From Dyadobacter sediminis (lineage in GTDB: Bacteria > Bacteroidota > Bacteroidia > Cytophagales > Spirosomataceae): 24,000 nt of DNA. Position numbers and translations under genes: made by a program. Below, piece after piece: positions 8,833 to 13,751 of the stretch (the first letter of the stretch is position 1; each line of letters opens with the position of its first letter). The notes beneath the pieces were generated by a model. It saw nothing but the letters and a program-made list of their open reading frames with translations. It was not told the DNA's origin and made no database searches. Location: positions 1,193,819 through 1,217,818 of the forward strand of contig NZ_VCEI01000011.1 in the NCBI RefSeq assembly GCF_005860765.1, read 5' to 3'.

Positions 8833-9894
8833 TCAATCCGGTTTCTGCCCGTTTTCAGCCTGTATTTCATTGGGTATGCCAATTTCATAAAACTTCATTG
8901 CTTCCGAAAGCTGTTCTGCAATGCGCTTGATCAGGATTCTTGGCGCCAAGATCCGGATTTTTGAACCAAAGCCTAAAAGCTCCCGTTCGAGCTCATAATT
9001 GTGAATTACCTGAATACTGAAAACAATGCCTTCTTCATCATTGCTGACGATTTTCTGTGTGGCATGCAGCGGTTTAGTAATTACATACGGCGCATCTTTA
9101 TGATTCATCCAGAAAACCACTTTCATATCCCGCTGGCCAGGCGATTTGGTAACGCCCAGAACGTCCGCATAATAATTGGAAAGATCGAGCGTCTGGTTTT
9201 CACGGTAAATTTCACAACGGTCATTTTCAAGTGTTTGAAACCTGTCCAGCGCCAGTGTCAGCAACGGCGCATGCCGCTGATGCGATTGCCCGAGTACAAA
9301 CCAGCGGTTCCTGTATTCTTTTAAAAGATACGGACTGAAACAAAAAGTGGCCGGCTGCCTGGCTTTAAAAGATTGATATGTAATACAGAGAACCGTTTTC
9401 GAAATGATGGCTTTTCGAATCCCTTCAATGAATTCCAATCCTTTGAGGTGATCATTTTTTTCGAAGTCAACAACGGGCAGACTTTGGGTTCTCTGCGCAT
9501 AAATCCGGTCTTCCAGCTTGCTGACCATTTCCGACAAGTCCGTAAAATGGCTGAACCCTTTAAACTGTTTCAACAAGCCCGAAACCTCGCCGAGCACTTT
9601 CAGGTCTTCATGGCTGAGCGGAATGTTGGTAATGCTGTAATGCCTGTCGGAGTACGTATAATATTTTTTATCCACGACAACAATCGGTGCTTCGTAACCG
9701 AGCTTGTCACTCCGCATCATTTCAATATCCGCCTGAACAGAACGCCTGCTTACGCCTTTGTCAATCCCCTCAAACTCGTAAAGTGCAGCGGAACATGCTT
9801 CAATCAGATCATCCAGCGTCCATTTGCGAAAACGGTTCTGCAGACAATTGTCAATTGTACGGTAACGAATCAGTGCGTTGCGGTTTACTGGCAT
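8833..9894 (-). CDS. HTH + WYL-domain transcriptional regulator (YafY/PafBC/BrxR/CapW-like architecture)
   Basis: 353-aa ORF. N-terminal winged-HTH-like region: NALIRYRTIDNCL...VSRRSVQADIEMMR. Central WYL-type region: LCITYQSFKARQPATFCFSPYLLKEYRNRWFVLG. C-terminal extension: VFSIQVIHNYELERELLGFGSKIRILAPRIL. Assignment is by recalled family pattern, not by a search. Confidence 0.8.
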   Translation of the reverse strand: MPVNRNALIRYRTIDNCLQNRFRKWTLDDLIEACSAALYEFEGIDKGVSRRSVQADIEMMRSDKLGYEAPIVVVDKKYYTYSDRHYSITNIPLSHEDLKVLGEVSGLLKQFKGFSHFTDLSEMVSKLEDRIYAQRTQSLPVVDFEKNDHLKGLEFIEGIRKAIISKTVLCITYQSFKARQPATFCFSPYLLKEYRNRWFVLGQSHQRHAPLLTLALDRFQTLENDRCEIYRENQTLDLSNYYADVLGVTKSPGQRDMKVVFWMNHKDAPYVITKPLHATQKIVSNDEEGIVFSIQVIHNYELERELLGFGSKIRILAPRILIKRIAEQLSEAMKFYEIGIPNEIQAENGQKPD

Positions 9895-9951: not shown

Positions 9952-10016
9952 TCGGGTTGTTGGTTTGCATTGTCAGAGAGAAAATGTACACAACAAATAA
10001 ACGAAAGGAGGTTACT

Positions 10017-11591
10017 ATGAAATTCAATTCCCAGAAAAGCAGCACGCGGCAGACCGAAAATCACGAAGGTGCAAAAGCATTTGTAATGAATCCTGAAATG
10101 CAGCTTTATACAGCCGTAGTAACCTGGTCGCTGAATGATACCTTTTATGAAAAAAACGACGAACGGCTTAACCGCGTTCGAACGCTGATTACTACATGCG
10201 ACCCATTGTTTGTGGCCAGACTTGCCGTATATGCCCGTCATAAAATGTACATGCGCTCTGCTCCGCTTGTACTGCTGACCGAACTGGCCCGGATTCACTC
10301 CGGCGATAACCTGATTGCCCGAACCACTGAAAAAGTAATTGCCCGCGCTGATGAAATTACGGAACTGCTCGCCTGTTATCAGCTCCTGAACGAACGTACA
10401 GGTCTGAAAAAGCTGAACCGATTGTCCAAGCAGTTACAAAAAGGACTGTCGGCTGCATTCAACCGTTTTGACGAATACCAGTTTTCGAAATACAACCGCA
10501 GTGGAGAGGTCAAACTTCGCGATGCATTGTTTCTCGTCCATCCGAAAGCCAAAGATGAAGCGCAGCAAATGCTTTTTAATAAAATGGCAGAAAACAGGCT
10601 TGAAACTGCTTATACGTGGGAAACGGAACTTTCAGCTTTGGGCCAAAACGATTTTGAAAATGAGTTTGCCCGCGCCGAAGCTTTCAAAAGCAAATGGGAA
10701 GAACTGATCGATAGTAACAAAGTCGGCTATATGGCTATGCTGCGCAATCTGCGGAATATTCTTCAGGCCGGCGTTTCGTACGGGCATTTGCAAAAGGTTT
10801 GTGAAATCATTTCATCAGCTGAAAAAGTGGCCAAAGCAAAGCAGTTTCCTTTTCGGTATCTGGCTGCCTACCGTGAATTACAAACAGGAATTCAGGTAAC
10901 GGCACCACACTTTTCGGAAAAGATCAGAAGTCTTTTGTTTGGCAATGCGGGTTATACCGGTGATTTGCTGGAAGCACTTGAAAAAGCCGCTGCGCACAGC
11001 GCAGCTTCCATGGCCGGCTTTGACCAGCATACAAGGGTTCTGCTTGCGTGTGATGTTTCGGGTTCCATGCAGATGCCGGTTTCGCCCAAATCTAAAATCC
11101 AGCTTTTCGACATCGGGCTGATGCTTGCCATGCTGCTGCGGTCACGAAGTAAAAATGTAGTTGTCGGGATGTTTGGTGACAAATGGAAAACCATTACTGT
11201 TCCTAAAAATAACATTCTGGCCAATGTGCAGGAATTTTACAAACGTACGGGTGAAGTCGGGTACGCGACGAACGGTTATCTGGTAATAAAGGATTTGCTG
11301 GAAAGAAAAGTAATCATGGATAAAGTAATGCTGTTTACCGACTGCCAGCTCTGGAACAGCAGCGGCAGCCCGGAACATATCCATGCGCTCTGGATCCGGT
11401 ATAAACGAGAAATTGCGCCTGATGCAAAATTGTACCTTTTCGATTTGAGGGGTTATGGCCAGTCGCCTTTGCAGCTTGTACAGCATGACGTGTACTTGCT
11501 TGCCGGATGGAGCGACAAAATTTTTGACATCCTGAATGCGCTTGAAAAGGGCCGTACGGCTTTGCAGGAAATCAATTCCATCATGCTTTGA
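10017..11591 (+). CDS. rsr: Ro60-related protein Rsr (TROVE domain + C-terminal vWA domain)
   Basis: The track ORF is 9957..11591. The probable start is Met21 at 10017 (MKFNSQKS...), preceded by AGGAGG at 10006-10011. N-terminal TROVE-type sequence: TENHEGAKAFVMNPEMQLYTAVVTWSLNDTFYE...FVARLAVYARHKMYMRSAP. vWA MIDAS motif DxSxS in VLLACDVSGSM. Confidence 0.9.
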   Translation: MKFNSQKSSTRQTENHEGAKAFVMNPEMQLYTAVVTWSLNDTFYEKNDERLNRVRTLITTCDPLFVARLAVYARHKMYMRSAPLVLLTELARIHSGDNLIARTTEKVIARADEITELLACYQLLNERTGLKKLNRLSKQLQKGLSAAFNRFDEYQFSKYNRSGEVKLRDALFLVHPKAKDEAQQMLFNKMAENRLETAYTWETELSALGQNDFENEFARAEAFKSKWEELIDSNKVGYMAMLRNLRNILQAGVSYGHLQKVCEIISSAEKVAKAKQFPFRYLAAYRELQTGIQVTAPHFSEKIRSLLFGNAGYTGDLLEALEKAAAHSAASMAGFDQHTRVLLACDVSGSMQMPVSPKSKIQLFDIGLMLAMLLRSRSKNVVVGMFGDKWKTITVPKNNILANVQEFYKRTGEVGYATNGYLVIKDLLERKVIMDKVMLFTDCQLWNSSGSPEHIHALWIRYKREIAPDAKLYLFDLRGYGQSPLQLVQHDVYLLAGWSDKIFDILNALEKGRTALQEINSIML

Positions 11592-11713
11592 AATGCTGAA
11601 ACCTAACAAATACGCATGCGTTCCATTTGAAAATATTTAAAAATGACATTTGGCCAACTATTAAAATATCTGACAGCTAAGAGCTAACGATCAAAAGCTG
11701 ATCAACAATCATT

Positions 11714-11833
11714 AAGGATGCCGTAGAAACAGGATACTTCGCTGCACTTACGGGGCGGGCATTATGGTGAAAGCCAGGATGGAGGTTCGAGTCCTCAAAG
11801 CGGTTCCCCGGCCTGTTTTGCCTGTCGCTCCTT
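11714..11833 (+). ncRNA. Y-RNA-like module A (long bulged terminal stem plus T-arm-containing top domain)
   Basis: Terminal stem: AAGGA (11714-18) pairs with TCCTT (11829-33), and AAACAGG (11727-33) pairs with CCTGTTT (11812-18), with a partly paired internal region. Motif ATACTTCG follows the inner helix directly. An internal stem pairs CGGGG (11751-55) with CCCCG (11806-10). T-arm GAGG-TTCGAGT-CCTC at 11782-11796. The 5' motif TGCCGTA and the stem layout are shared with modules B and C. Boundaries are approximate. Confidence 0.6.
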
Positions 11834-11840
11834 AAAAAAA

Positions 11841-11985
11841 AAAGGTGTCGTAAATGCGTGTTACTTCGATCTGTCACATCCCGGGTCGCCGGTTCGAGTC
11901 CGGCTCTGCTGTGCAAGCAGCAGATAGCTCAGTTGGTAGAGCAGGGCACCGCAAGGTGCATGTCACGCATTGTTTTTTACCCTTT
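11841..11985 (+). ncRNA. yrlA: YrlA-type Y RNA with a circularly permuted tRNA-like domain (module B)
   Basis: Order on the plus strand:
- T-arm GCCGG-TTCGAGT-CCGGC (11888-11904).
- Acceptor-like 7-bp hairpin TCTGCTG / CAGCAGA closed by a loop (11905-11924).
- TA at the U8/A9 positions.
- D-arm GCTC-AGTTGGTA-GAGC (11927-11942) with A14, G18, G19 and A21 equivalents.
- A GGG/CCC anticodon-stem remnant (11944-46 with 11880-82).
- Hairpin GCACC-GCAA-GGTGC (11946-11959).
Terminal stem: AATGCGTG (11853-60) pairs with CACGCATT (11964-71), and AAAGG (11841-45) pairs with CCTTT (11981-85). A U-rich 3' tail follows. It lies about 250 nt downstream of the rsr stop on the same strand. Confidence 0.85.
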
Positions 11986-11995
11986 TTGTTATTTG

Positions 11996-12089
11996 AAAGA
12001 TGTCGTACGAATGTGTTACTTCTTCTGGTAGAAACCGTGCAGACGGTCAGGTTCGAATCCTGTTTCACACATCCGGTTTGTTACTCTTT
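11996..12089 (+). ncRNA. Y-RNA-like module C (terminal stem plus non-permuted mini-tRNA-like top)
   Basis: Its 5' end AAAGATGTCGTACGAATGTGTTACTTC parallels module B's AAAGGTGTCGTAAATGCGTGTTACTTC. Stems: AAAGA (11996-12000) pairs with TCTTT (12085-89), and ATGTGT (12011-16) pairs with ACACAT (12067-72). The top domain has TTCT-GGT-AGAA (12023-33), CCGT-GCAG-ACGG (12035-46) and T-arm CAGG-TTCGAAT-CCTG (12048-62). Confidence 0.6.
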
Positions 12090-12160
12090 CAATTTAAATC
12101 GATTCGGTGCAGAGGCTGGATTAGTGTTTCCGGATGTTTGAAAATTGTTATACGATGCTA

Positions 12161-12210
12161 TTTATTGTCATGTATGGTTGTTTGTAGTCATTTGTAGTTA
12201 TGTATGGTCA
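12161..12210. repeat. Five helically phased 10-bp T/G-rich decamers
   Basis: The run reads TTTATTGTCA | TGTATGGTTG | TTTGTAGTCA | TTTGTAGTTA | TGTATGGTCA, starting at 12161, 12171, 12181, 12191 and 12201. TGTATGGT and TTTGTAGT each occur twice in an A-B-B-A order with exact 10-bp register. Confidence 0.5.
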
Positions 12211-12512
12211 TATCATACATTTTTGATTTTGAGTATTCATAATGGCGGTTTCCGGTTTTTCTGAATATCTGGCTGAATTGACAAAGTTCTGGAAGGAACG
12301 TTTTTCTGTTTAGTACATCATCCTGTGCTATGGCAGACAGTACTGAAAACCCGGCCCTTTTGTTTATACGCTCGCCGTTCGGAAATTTTCCAGTTTTATA
12401 AAAGCAATTTTCAGACTGAACGCATGAACCGGAATGGTGTTTTAATAAGTTAAACGGGTTTAGCTTCCTTGCCAAACTGCGCAATTTATTCCCGAAATCC
12501 CAAAAACACCCC

Positions 12513-13751
12513 ATGGATATATTGACTATTATTACATCTCTGATCATAACCAGTGCGGCATTTTCCTACCTCAACCAGCGTTTTCTCAGACTTCCGGGAA
12601 CCATCGGCGTAATGACGATTTCCATTGTGGTTTCGCTCTTTATCATACTGATCGGCAAGACAGGATTTGAAAATTCCGGACTGATCAAAACGCTGACCTA
12701 TAACATTGATTTTTCCAAAGTGCTGCTGGATGTCATGCTGGGATTTTTGCTGTTTGCCATGGCCATGCATTTTGACTATCAGGATCTTAAAAAGCTGAGA
12801 GCACCGGTGATATTGCTAAGTACCATTGGTGTTATTGTTTCCGCCGGTGTATTTGGCGGACTTTTCCATCTGGCAACCGTCCTCTTGAAAGTGGAAGTGC
12901 CGCTGATCTATTCATTTGTTTTCGGCGCACTGATTTCACCCACAGACCCGATCGCCGTTGCTTCCATTTTGAAGCAGTCCAGGATTCCTGCCCGGCTGGA
13001 AACCATTATTTCAGGTGAATCCATGTTCAATGACGCTGTGGGGCTTATCCTGTTTGTCACTTTGCTCAGCATTGCCGATCAGTCGCAGGAAAGTTTGTCG
13101 CTCATGCAATCACTGGTACTTTTTTCAGAGGAAGTCATCGGCGGTATCGTAATCGGTCTGATGGCAGGTTATGCGGGTTACCGGCTCATGAAATCAATCA
13201 GCGATTTTCAGACAATTTTTCTGATTTCAGTTGCACTTGTCTTAGGGCTTTCCGTTATAGCCGGACGTTTTCATGCCTCGGTTCCATTGTCTGCAGTTAC
13301 CGCGGGACTGATTATAGGCAATAACCGCTTCGGAAGGTCGCATCCTGCCGAAGAATCCCTGAGCATGGTGTGGAAGTTGCTGGATGAAGTTCTGAATACG
13401 ATTCTGTTTGTCATGATCGGTTTGCAGCTGATCATGCTTCCGTTTTTTAGCAATTACCTGCTCATTGGCTGTGTTTCGGTCGTTATCGTTCTTTTTGCCA
13501 GAATGATCAGCATTTCTATTCCTTCTATATTCATACTGCGCAGAATGAACCCGAGCAACCTTGCTATATTGACCTGGGCCGGACTGCGCGGCGGCATATC
13601 CGTTGCCATGGCGCTGCTGCTTCCGGCTTCTCCATACCGGGAAGCAATTCTGTCATGCTGTTATTTCATTGTGATCTTTTCAGTCATTGTCCAGGGCCTT
13701 ACCCTGAACCGTGTTGTAAACAAATTTGCAGACGACAAGGATCTGTTGTAA
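12513..13751 (+). CDS. Cation:proton antiporter (CPA1 / NhaP-type Na+/H+ exchanger)
   Basis: 412-aa polytopic membrane ORF. Na+/H+ exchanger family patterns: FGALISPTDPIAV, GESMFNDAVGLILF and TWAGLRGGISVAMAL. Confidence 0.88.
   Translation: MDILTIITSLIITSAAFSYLNQRFLRLPGTIGVMTISIVVSLFIILIGKTGFENSGLIKTLTYNIDFSKVLLDVMLGFLLFAMAMHFDYQDLKKLRAPVILLSTIGVIVSAGVFGGLFHLATVLLKVEVPLIYSFVFGALISPTDPIAVASILKQSRIPARLETIISGESMFNDAVGLILFVTLLSIADQSQESLSLMQSLVLFSEEVIGGIVIGLMAGYAGYRLMKSISDFQTIFLISVALVLGLSVIAGRFHASVPLSAVTAGLIIGNNRFGRSHPAEESLSMVWKLLDEVLNTILFVMIGLQLIMLPFFSNYLLIGCVSVVIVLFARMISISIPSIFILRRMNPSNLAILTWAGLRGGISVAMALLLPASPYREAILSCCYFIVIFSVIVQGLTLNRVVNKFADDKDLL

What the first reader, a model, noticed from the sequence alone, without database searches (positions are those of the whole stretch)
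11841..11985. Module B is a near-perfect circularly permuted tRNA (T-arm, closed acceptor hairpin, D-arm), the YrlA hallmark
Directly readable on the plus strand:
- Variable-loop-like GGGTC.
- T-arm GCCGG-TTCGAGT-CCGGC.
- A 7-bp acceptor-like stem TCTGCTG/CAGCAGA, capped by a loop instead of free ends.
- TA at the U8/A9 positions.
- D-arm GCTC-AGTTGGTA-GAGC with all conserved tertiary-interaction nucleotides (A14, G18, G19, A21, T54, T55, C56, A58 equivalents).
The anticodon-arm position opens into a helix (ACATCCC with GGG...ATGT) that carries an inserted GCAA-tetraloop hairpin. That helix stacks on a basal stem formed by the 5' and 3' ends. A 15-nt 5' bulge, TTACTTCGATCTGTC, lies between them.

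The order T-arm, acceptor, D-arm cannot be a normal tRNA gene. It matches the published topology of YrlA tRNA-like domains.
Basis: partly seen in the sequence, partly recalled or inferred. Interest (0 to 1): 0.65.

Follow-up and report, generated by a model that had tools for sequence, protein, structure and literature searches.

The report
YrlA-type tRNA-mimic Y RNA beside Ro60
This roughly 145-base stretch is a small non-coding RNA of the known YrlA class, a "tRNA turned inside out" on a stem that docks the Ro60 protein encoded just upstream; it is a sound call but an ordinary member of a published RNA family.

Summary
Window 11841-11985 (+) holds, in order:
- a 5-nt variable loop
- a canonical T-arm
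- a closed 7-8 bp acceptor hairpin
- U8/A9
- a canonical D-arm.

All of this sits inside two nested stems.

It lies 250 nt downstream of, and on the same strand as, a Ro60/Rsr gene (TROVE plus vWA).

Rfam's YrlA model hits the tRNA-like core at 42.4 bits (E = 5e-8). That is below the gathering score of 69.

A model built here found 80 strong homologues, on the rsr strand and nearly all just 3' of rsr, in Bacteroidota loci:
- 95% of base-pair cells are paired, against 37-46% when partners are slid.
- 836 cells carry compensatory changes.
- The Levitt pair covaries.

Within the genus, the RNA occurs only in genomes that carry rsr.

- An extra terminal helix with a bulged U closes the RNA.
- The Ro motif is GYCGUA rather than GNCGAA.
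- The ACAT/ATGT helix is only moderately supported.

Verdict: a new member of a known kind, in a Bacteroidota subfamily that Rfam's threshold misses. Expression, Rsr binding and function are inferred, not shown. The scan has flagged YrlA-like RNAs many times on other DNA.

The parts
9957..11591 (+). rsr (Ro60 ortholog, 544 aa), the presumed protein partner. Context, not part of the RNA.
   Evidence: Pfam TROVE 94.8 bits and vWA_Ro60 35.4 bits.
11839..11987 (+). Whole YrlA-type Y RNA (module B). The approximate ends are set by where the covarying terminal helix stops.
   Evidence: CM R1 182 bits at 11841-11985. The helix extension is paired in 90%, 66% and 60% of homologues for 1-3 further pairs, then falls to about 35% background.
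11841..11848 (+). Terminal helix P1, 5' strand: AAAGG, bulged U (11846), GU.
   Evidence: Pairs with 11979-11985. 97.7% of cells are paired and 6 of 7 pairs show compensatory changes. Five of the seven pairs (1:232, 2:231, 3:230, 4:229, 8:226) involve columns unpaired or otherwise paired in the model that made the alignment.
11847..11852 (+). GUCGUA, the candidate Rsr-binding motif. It is a variant of the published GNCGAA(N)G.
   Evidence: G[TC]CGTA is present in nearly all of the 80 homologues. The published motif is from Chen 2014.
11853..11860 (+). Basal stem P2, 5' strand (AATGCGTG).
   Evidence: Pairs with 11964-11971. 97.2% paired; all 8 pairs show compensatory changes.
11861..11875 (+). 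15-nt 5' bulge. Its first 8 nt, UUACUUCG, are conserved, and UUAC corresponds to the published YUAY.
   Evidence: [TA]TACTTCG in 61 of 80 homologues; bulge length 13-15 nt in 61 of 80. YUAY and the UA kink are described.
11876..11882 (+). P3 (ACAU) and P4 (CCC), 5' strands. P4 takes the place of the 3' strand of the tRNA anticodon stem.
   Evidence: P4 is 86% paired with many compensatory changes. P3 is 77% paired and gapped in about half of the homologues.
11883..11887 (+). Variable loop GGGUC (G46, C48).
   Evidence: 5-nt loops ending in C or U. The Levitt pair 15:48 is G:C in 71, A:U in 8 and A:C in 1 of 80.
11888..11904 (+). T-arm GCCGG-UUCGAGU-CCGGC.
   Evidence: 98.5% paired; the loop is UUCRANY in nearly all homologues. 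Matched by Rfam YrlA and by the tmRNA T-arm.
11905..11924 (+). Closed acceptor-like hairpin: 7 bp plus a U.G pair, with a GCAA loop.
   Evidence: 95.2% paired; all 8 pairs are compensatory. Alignment-free check: at least 4 end-anchored pairs in 63 of 80 homologues, against a shuffled mean of 1.7.
11925..11926 (+). U8/A9 equivalents.
   Evidence: TA in 77 of 80 homologues.
11927..11942 (+). D-arm GCUC-AGUUGGUA-GAGC.
   Evidence: 98.8% paired; GCTC/GAGC in 67 of 80.
11943..11946 (+). A26, then P4 3' strand GGG (the equivalent of the 5' strand of the anticodon stem).
   Evidence: Position 26 is A in 72 and G in 8 of 80. P4 covaries.
11947..11958 (+). Inserted hairpin CACC-GCAA-GGUG, a lineage-specific extra.
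   Evidence: An insert of 12 nt or more (long enough for the hairpin) occurs in 20 of 80 homologues. Where it is present it is 97% paired, with AU:13 and GC:11 at one pair, and the loops are GNRA.
11960..11971 (+). 3' strands of P3 (AUGU) and P2 (CACGCAUU).
11972..11985 (+). 3' internal-loop strand GUUUUUU, then P1 3' strand ACCCUUU.
   Evidence: The family consensus is G-Y-Y-U-K-U-U followed by R-C-C.

Best explanation
Module B is a gene for a YrlA-class bacterial Y RNA of about 145-150 nt.

**Shown here**
- It has the family's two-module architecture.
- The first module is a terminal "handle": 5 bp, a bulged U, 2 bp, an internal loop carrying GUCGUA, then an 8-bp stem.
- The second module is a tRNA-like domain wired as V-loop, T-arm, closed acceptor hairpin, U8/A9, D-arm.
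- Both are conserved with compensatory changes beside rsr across Bacteroidota.
- Within its genus, the RNA is present only where rsr is present.

**Inferred from work on Deinococcus, Salmonella and M. smegmatis**
- The RNA is transcribed with or just after rsr, then trimmed to the terminal helix.
- The handle binds the outer face of the Rsr ring through the 5'-strand motif.
- The L-shaped tRNA mimic is modified by tRNA enzymes (TruB for Psi55, Dus).
- It serves as the effector-binding end, tethering Rsr to a partner. PNPase is the only partner known in other bacteria.
- The result is a ribonucleoprotein that degrades or handles structured or damaged RNA under stress.
For: - **Sequence.** All canonical tRNA core nucleotides are present in permuted order.
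- **Rfam.** YrlA RF02553 matches model positions 23-88 at 42.4 bits, E = 5.3e-8. ARAGORN finds no tRNA.
- **Partner gene.** rsr (TROVE plus vWA_Ro60) ends 250 nt upstream on the same strand.
- **Homologues.** CM R1 finds 184 matches in 64 loci and the window (57 of the loci anchored on rsr, 7 found by DNA similarity to the window). Almost all lie on the rsr strand just 3' of the gene, and 80 have E <= 1e-9.
- **Covariation.**
  - 95.2% of cells are paired, against 36.5-45.9% when partners are slid.
  - 836 cells are compensatory, against 72-145.
  - No shuffle out of 500 reaches the observed values.
  - Five of the seven terminal-helix pairs (columns 1-4 with 229-232, and 8 with 226) were not pairs in the aligning model, so they are not circular evidence.
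- **Alignment-free check.** The acceptor hairpin test is positive.
- **Tertiary and sequence signatures.** The Levitt pair covaries (G:C 71, A:U 8) and U8/A9 is TA in 77 of 80.
- **Co-occurrence in the genus.** 8 full-length matches in 62 genomes. All 8 are in TROVE-positive genomes and lie about 1 kb downstream on the same strand.
- **Literature.** The published description of YrlA matches.
Against: - The Rfam score is below the curated gathering threshold (42.4 against 69). The match covers only the tRNA-like core.
- The 5' motif is GUCGUA, not the published GNCGAA.
- There is no transcript, end-mapping, Rsr-binding or modification evidence.
- No sigma-70-type promoter or intrinsic terminator was detected around it. 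That scan does not cover Bacteroidota promoters.
- The effector is unknown. Even in Deinococcus, deleting the T-arm did not change PNPase complex assembly.
Confidence: 0.87

Rival explanations
1. Two-piece variant. Because its acceptor stem has the tRNA length of 7 bp, module B is cut by RNase P in the hairpin loop (predicted between G11917 and C11918). The 5' half is then trimmed and given CCA, as in M. smegmatis YrlA, so the active RNA would be a nicked, CCA-tailed and possibly aminoacylatable tRNA mimic.
For: - Chen 2014 attributes RNase P cleavage of M. smegmatis YrlA to its 7-bp acceptor stem, which they found in that species alone.
- Module B has 7 Watson-Crick pairs stacked on a 5-bp T-stem.
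Against: - In the 80 homologues the stem varies from 3 to 11 bp and the loops from 3 to about 20 nt, so a 7-bp stem is not selected for.
- Here an extra U.G pair and a tight GCAA tetraloop extend the stem to 8 bp and leave no single-stranded leader.
- No cleavage was seen for Salmonella YrlA or for Yrn1.
Confidence: 0.1
2. Decoy function. The RNA still binds Rsr, but the role of the tRNA-like domain is to soak up or inhibit tRNA-targeting enzymes such as anticodon nucleases or toxins, rather than to recruit PNPase.
For: - Hughes 2020 proposes that YrlA could be a competitive inhibitor of the anticodon nuclease, because it is not cleaved itself.
- The domain has no anticodon loop.
- In about 10 related rsr loci, the Y modules are interleaved with same-strand tRNA gene arrays (Lys-UUU, Gln-UUG, Arg-ACG, Phe, Tyr, Pro and others).
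Against: - There is no direct evidence in any organism.
- This window has no tRNA array and no recognisable nuclease or toxin gene next to the locus.
Confidence: 0.15
3. It is not a trans-acting RNA but a structured 3'-UTR element of the rsr mRNA, acting as an exonuclease block or terminator substitute. Its tRNA likeness would serve only for stability.
For: - It lies downstream of rsr on the same strand, with no detected promoter or terminator between them.
- Chen 2014 themselves consider nuclease protection as one role of the tRNA fold.
Against: - Three to seven such modules follow one another in many loci, each closed by its own covarying terminal helix. That fits separately excised RNAs.
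- In the one relative whose rsr frame carries an in-frame TGA (G014; read as broken, not examined further), the RNA is still kept at 163 bits.
- In characterised species the homologous RNAs are discrete, Rsr-bound species.
Confidence: 0.05
4. It is the junction of two tandem tRNA genes or pseudogenes (T-arm and acceptor 3' strand of copy 1, spacer, acceptor 5' strand and D-arm of copy 2), or a permuted tRNA gene that is re-joined into a working tRNA.
For: - Tandem identical tRNA genes do give this arm order.
- The only R1 hit in an rsr-free genome of the genus (G058, 39.9 bits, model positions 31-123) turned out to be exactly that: a tandem tRNA-Asp array.
Against: - There is no anticodon stem-loop on either side, and ARAGORN finds no tRNA in the window.
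- The "spacer" is a 4-nt tetraloop.
- The anticodon position opens into the covarying Ro handle.
- No host tRNA is notably close. The best match scores 31 of 47 and is shared by Phe and Ala, with His at 30 and Val at 29.
Confidence: 0.02

Closest known systems
YrlA (Y RNA-like A; Rfam RF02553), as described in Salmonella Typhimurium, M. smegmatis and mycobacteriophages (Chen et al. 2014, PMC4201824; Wang et al. 2018, bioRxiv 10.1101/312249, PDB 6CU1)
   Same: - It is encoded within 4 kb of, and on the same strand as, Ro60/Rsr.
- A 5' Ro motif is followed by a stem.
- YUAY follows directly after that stem.
- The order is V-loop, T-arm, closed acceptor stem, U8/A9, D-arm.
- The tRNA tertiary nucleotides are present, including a covarying Levitt pair.
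- There is no anticodon loop and no free CCA end.
   Different: - It scores 42.4 bits against the gathering score of 69. None of 15 Bacteroidota rsr loci gives a YrlA hit at Rfam's threshold.
- The motif is GYCGUA rather than GNCGAA.
- Both strands of a terminal bulged-U helix are conserved and covary. In Salmonella and M. smegmatis only the 5' strand is recognisable.
- The conserved YUAY is extended to UUACUUCG.
- A GNRA-capped hairpin is inserted in the anticodon-position helix.
- The neighbours are a divergent WYL/WCX regulator gene. No RtcR, RtcB or RtcA homologue was among the neighbouring ORFs scanned.
Deinococcus radiodurans Yrn1/Yrn2 and metazoan Y RNAs
   Same: - Both strands of the Ro-binding helix are conserved, with a bulged pyrimidine.
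- Several Y RNAs are encoded in tandem next to rsr. In Deinococcus they are co-transcribed with a tRNA.
- Related Bacteroidota loci interleave Y modules with tRNA genes.
   Different: - Yrn1 has the T and D elements in the other orientation and lacks a full D-arm.
- Metazoan Y RNAs have no tRNA-like domain.
tmRNA tRNA-like domain and viral TLS
   Same: A T-arm with a UUCGA loop and a D/T elbow. The tmRNA model matches the T-arm at 12 bits.
   Different: Those RNAs have a free, aminoacylatable CCA end and act on the ribosome. Here the acceptor is a closed hairpin.

Membership tests
YrlA (bacterial Y RNA with tRNA-like domain) | Encoded within about 4 kb of a Ro60/TROVE gene, on the same strand | tested here: met
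   rsr is at 9957-11591 (+) and the RNA at 11841-11985 (+). The same arrangement holds for 80 homologues. In the genus, the RNA occurs only in TROVE-positive genomes.
YrlA (bacterial Y RNA with tRNA-like domain) | T stem-loop, then a closed AS stem-loop, then a D stem-loop, with conserved tRNA nucleotides | tested here: met
   T-arm 98.5% paired, acceptor stem 95.2%, D-arm 98.8%.
YrlA (bacterial Y RNA with tRNA-like domain) | Levitt pair 15:48 kept by compensatory change (G:C or A:U) | tested here: met
   G:C in 71, A:U in 8 and A:C in 1 of 80. The window has G11932:C11887.
YrlA (bacterial Y RNA with tRNA-like domain) | GNCGAAN0-1G motif near the 5' end | tested here: inconclusive
   The window has GUCGUAAAUG at the expected distance from the 5' end. 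GNCG is met, but the fifth base is U rather than A in nearly all Bacteroidota copies. This looks like a clade variant of the motif rather than the motif itself.
YrlA (bacterial Y RNA with tRNA-like domain) | Conserved YUAY after the Ro-binding stem | tested here: met
   UUAC at 11861-11864. [TAC]TAC begins the bulge in nearly all of the 80 homologues. The published position is nt 22-25; here it is nt 21-24.
YrlA (bacterial Y RNA with tRNA-like domain) | Score at or above the Rfam RF02553 gathering threshold (69 bits) | tested here: not met
   42.4 bits, E = 5.3e-8, model positions 23-88 only. There was no hit at the gathering threshold.
YrlA (bacterial Y RNA with tRNA-like domain) | Stable RNA bound by Rsr and modified by TruB/DusA | not testable with these tools
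This needs a Northern blot, RIP, and CMC primer extension.
Canonical or permuted tRNA gene | Anticodon stem-loop and a free acceptor end after processing | tested here: not met
   ARAGORN finds none. The anticodon position opens into the handle, and the acceptor is closed by GCAA.

The most novel reading that the evidence does not exclude
The Bacteroidota RNAs may form a distinct YrlA subfamily with three features:
- a handle of their own: a terminal helix conserved and covarying on both strands, with a bulged U, GYCGUA and UUACUUCG
- deployment as tandem sets of two to seven modules 3' of rsr, in some lineages interleaved with tRNA gene arrays
- control by a divergent WYL-domain regulator instead of RtcR.

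Together these would amount to a Ro60/Y-RNA stress module that senses and answers RNA or tRNA damage independently of the RtcBA repair operon.
Probability: 0.3. Interest if true: 0.5.

Novelty: new member of a known kind. Interest (0 to 1): 0.3.

Why it matters
- **Annotation.** It extends a well-characterised class of tRNA mimic to a clade where the curated Rfam model stays under threshold. Pipelines that rely on Rfam's gathering threshold would therefore leave these RNAs unannotated.
- **A clean comparative data set.** Eighty covarying homologues pin down:
  - the secondary structure
  - the likely mature ends
  - a two-stranded Ro-binding helix closer to the Deinococcus and animal type
  - an invariant single-stranded UUACUUCG that is a candidate protein contact.
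- **Experimental options.** Bacteroidota include genetically tractable laboratory strains, and Bacteroides thetaiotaomicron carries a TROVE gene. The still-open question of what the tRNA-like domain binds could be addressed there.
- **Scope.** None of this changes the general picture of Ro/Y RNA biology.

Tried and rejected
- **Rfam at gathering threshold on the whole window:** no hit. The YrlA match only appears with E-value reporting on the local region.
- **MFE fold:** it gives a different pairing of the bulge with the V-loop. This was rejected because it is paired no more often than shuffles (64.7% against 65.3%).
- **My first register for the terminal helix** (G4-C141 and so on, as used in CM R1): rejected in favour of the bulged-U register, which rises from 82.5% to 97.7% paired.
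- **A regex-based parse of the arms:** it mis-assigned the UUCGAUC of the bulge as a T-loop. It was replaced by column-based extraction.
- **Specific host tRNA as recent ancestor:** none stands out.
- **Partial CM hit in an rsr-free relative (G058):** this is a tandem tRNA-Asp array, hence a false positive.
- **Supplementary species tables of Chen 2014:** not held. I could not check whether Bacteroidota YrlAs were already in their list of 254 species.
- **Burroughs & Aravind 2016:** not held.
- **sigma-70 promoter and terminator scan:** uninformative.

Full report
**1. What is in the sequence**

Reading 11841-11985 on the plus strand gives, in order:

| Coordinates | Element |
|---|---|
| 11841-45 | AAAGG |
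| 11846 | U |
| 11847-52 | GUCGUA |
| 11853-60 | AAUGCGUG |
| 11861-75 | UUACUUCGAUCUGUC |
| 11876-82 | ACAU-CCC |
| 11883-87 | GGGUC |
| 11888-904 | T-arm GCCGG-UUCGAGU-CCGGC |
| 11905-24 | hairpin UCUGCUG(U)-GCAA-(G)CAGCAGA |
| 11925-26 | UA |
| 11927-42 | D-arm GCUC-AGUUGGUA-GAGC |
| 11943 | A |
| 11944-46 | GGG |
| 11947-58 | hairpin CACC-GCAA-GGUG |
| 11959 | C |
| 11960-63 | AUGU |
| 11964-71 | CACGCAUU |
| 11972-78 | GUUUUUU |
| 11979-85 | ACCCUUU |

In tRNA numbering the domain carries U8, A9, A14, G15, G18, G19, A21, G46, C48, U54, U55, C56 and A58. The three base triples seen in tRNA-Phe and in the YrlA crystal structure can all form: U8-A14-A21, C13-G22-G46 and A9-U12-A23. ARAGORN calls no tRNA anywhere in the window.

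**2. Is it more than chance?**

- Rfam has no hit at gathering thresholds.
- With E-value reporting on 11550-12250, the YrlA family (RF02553) matches 11880-11949 at 42.4 bits, E = 5.3e-8. The match covers model positions 23-88, which is exactly the tRNA-like core. The curated cut-off is 69.
- The stretch folds better than shuffles (z = -3.8).

**3. Context**

- The ORF at 9957-11591 (+) is a Ro60/Rsr ortholog, with TROVE at 94.8 bits and vWA_Ro60 at 35.4 bits.
- A WYL/WCX regulator is divergent from it at 8833-9894 (-).
- The RNA begins 250 nt after the rsr stop codon, on the same strand.
- The sigma-70 and terminator scan of 11450-12550, which covers the rsr 3' end, all three modules and about 460 nt downstream, found no intrinsic terminator and one minus-strand promoter-like site after module C. 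The scan does not model Bacteroidota promoters.

**4. Homologues**

*Close relatives.* A DNA search of 41 genomes (G000 and 40 relatives) found the three-module region in four genomes of the same genus. It found the tRNA-like module alone in two other families of the order. In all of them the order T-arm, hairpin, U-A, D-arm is kept, while the hairpin sequence changes.

*Wider sampling.* A scan with the Rsr protein returned 57 rsr loci from across Bacteroidota, plus one Ignavibacteria MAG and one MAG labelled Akkermansia.

It found 184 matches at E <= 1 in these loci, almost all on the rsr strand and immediately 3' of the gene. There are often three to seven matches per locus. Eighty matches have E <= 1e-9.

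**5. Covariation**

| Measure | Structure | Partners slid 1-3 columns |
|---|---|---|
| Cells forming a standard pair | 92.6% | 39-47% |
| Cells with changes on both sides | 705 | 69-141 |

No shuffle out of 500 reached the observed values.

*A new terminal helix.* Inspecting the ends showed that the five outermost bases on each side covary (AAAGG/CCUUU, ACAAG/CUUGU, GCAGG/CCUGC and so on). It also showed that position 8 (U or C) covaries with the A or G of the 3' UUACC/UUGCC.

Re-counting with this bulged-U terminal helix gives 97.7% pairing for the helix, with six of seven pairs compensatory. The whole structure rises to 95.2% paired with 836 compensatory cells. Five of these seven pairs (1:232, 2:231, 3:230, 4:229 and 8:226) involve columns that were unpaired, or paired otherwise, in R1. 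This part of the evidence is therefore not biased by the aligning model.

The helix continues for one to three more pairs (90%, 66% and 60% paired) and then drops to about 35% background. That places the ends in this window near 11839 and 11987.

*Per-helix support*:

| Helix | Cells paired |
|---|---|
| P2 (basal stem) | 97.2% |
| T-arm | 98.5% |
| Acceptor hairpin | 95.2% (all 8 pairs compensatory) |
| D-arm | 98.8% |
| P4 | 86% |
| P3 | 77% (gapped in about half) |
| Inserted hairpin | 97% where present (an insert of 12 nt or more in 20 of 80) |

*Rejected alternative.* The MFE-alternative helix is paired in 64.7% of cells, against 65.3% in shuffles. It is rejected.

*Alignment-free control.* The segment between the T-arm and U8/A9 has at least four end-anchored consecutive pairs in 63 of 80 sequences, of which 72 are distinct. 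Shuffles give a mean of 1.7 and a maximum of 9.

**6. Sequence signatures across the 80 homologues**

- U8/A9 is UA in 77.
- The D-stem is GCUC/GAGC in 67.
- The Levitt pair is G:C in 71, A:U in 8 and A:C in 1. This is the compensatory pattern Chen 2014 reported.
- Position 26 is A in 72 and G in 8.
- The 5' motif is G[UC]CGUA almost universally.
- The bulge starts with [UA]UACUUCG in 61.
- Acceptor stems run from 3 to 11 bp, with loops from 3 to about 20 nt.

**7. Co-occurrence**

In the 62 genomes of the genus, TROVE is found in 10. One of these is a 119-aa remnant and one sits on a short contig. R1 finds eight full-length matches. All eight are in TROVE-positive genomes, and all lie about 1 kb downstream on the same strand.

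The single match in a TROVE-negative genome (G058, 39.9 bits, model positions 31-123) is the junction of tandem tRNA-Asp genes. It is a false positive. It does show that tandem tRNAs naturally give the permuted arm order.

**8. Comparison with the literature**

Chen 2014 defines YrlA by:
- proximity and shared strand with Ro60
- a GNCGAAN0-1G motif
- a conserved YUAY
- T, AS and D stem-loops with tRNA tertiary nucleotides.

Wang 2018 solved the tRNA-like domain.

Differences found here:
- The motif is GYCGUA, with U instead of A at the fifth base.
- Both strands of the terminal helix are conserved, with a bulged U. Chen 2014 describes that for Deinococcus and animal Y RNAs, but not for Salmonella or M. 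smegmatis.
- YUAY is extended to an invariant UUACUUCG.
- A GNRA hairpin is inserted in some lineages.
- The Rfam model does not reach its threshold in any of 15 Bacteroidota rsr loci tested.

I could not check whether Bacteroidota were among the 254 species of Chen 2014, because the supplements are not held. A full-text search for YrlA together with Bacteroid* found nothing specific.

**9. Mechanism**

*Shown:* the architecture, its conservation, and its linkage to rsr.

*Inferred from other bacteria:*
- binding of Rsr through the handle
- modification by TruB and Dus
- tethering of Rsr to an effector such as PNPase.

[quoted passage not shown] However, stem length is not conserved in the family, and here the stem is extended by a U.G pair under a GCAA tetraloop. 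I rate this at about 10%.

*Decoy role.* A role against tRNA-targeting nucleases has been proposed by Hughes 2020. It is compatible with the tRNA arrays seen in related loci, but it is untested.

**10. Limits**

- The 80-sequence alignment was fitted to the model, apart from the terminal-helix columns and the alignment-free test.
- The homologues are related to one another, so the shuffle counts are not probabilities.

**11. Verdict**

This is a new member of a known kind, in a Bacteroidota subfamily that falls under Rfam's threshold. The scan has already flagged YrlA-like RNAs many times on other DNA.

Noticed in passing
window 11714-11833 and 11996-12089: Modules A and C flank module B and carry the same handle (G[TC]CGTA, stem, [AT]TACTTC, then TTG..GTTAC/GCTCC at the 3' end). 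Each has only a T-arm plus reduced elements. Module C matches CM R1 at 32.8 bits. Module A itself does not match at E <= 1, but its ortholog in L003 scores 25.4 bits. They look like further Y RNAs (YrlB-like) in a tandem set.
   Followed up: partly
L007, L008, L023, L024, L032, L035, L042, L047, L059, L061: In about 10 of the related rsr loci, the Y-like modules are interleaved with same-strand tRNA gene arrays of up to 12 genes. The anticodons recur: Lys-UUU, Gln-UUG, Arg-ACG, Phe-GAA, Tyr-GUA, Pro-UGG and Ile-UAU. This suggests co-transcription and shared processing, and perhaps a link to tRNA damage.
   Followed up: partly
window 8833-9894 (-) and L018-L060 upstream of rsr: A homologue of the WYL/WCX regulator (46-70% identity in the full-length matches) lies upstream of rsr on the opposite strand in about 28 of the 57 rsr loci, within the 4-kb flank. 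None of the neighbouring ORFs scanned here is RtcR, RtcB or RtcA.
   Followed up: partly
G014:C1:2251287-2252037 (locus L003): In this same-genus relative, the TROVE match is split and contains an in-frame TGA, so rsr may be a pseudogene. Its module B is nonetheless conserved at 163 bits.
   Followed up: no
L005 1547-1701 (-): The module-B ortholog carries a 15-nt duplication (CGCCGGGCGCCGGGC) at the V-loop/T-arm border. It could form a long variable arm.
   Followed up: no
L066 (G058:C1) 2400-2800: This is a tandem array of tRNA-Asp genes. Some copies carry GC-rich insertions (for example CCCGGGCCGCGTAGGCTG) in the anticodon and T regions. It is the source of a false-positive CM hit.
   Followed up: no
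L009, L013, L017, L058, L062, L065, L049: Several Bacteroidota genomes carry two to four full YrlA-type paralogues (each with a complete T/AS/D domain) in one array. This window has only one.
   Followed up: no
L062 3700-3766; L065 3065-3131 and 7597-7663: Flavo-1 RNA (RF01705) matches just above threshold near two Mucilaginibacter rsr loci.
   Followed up: no
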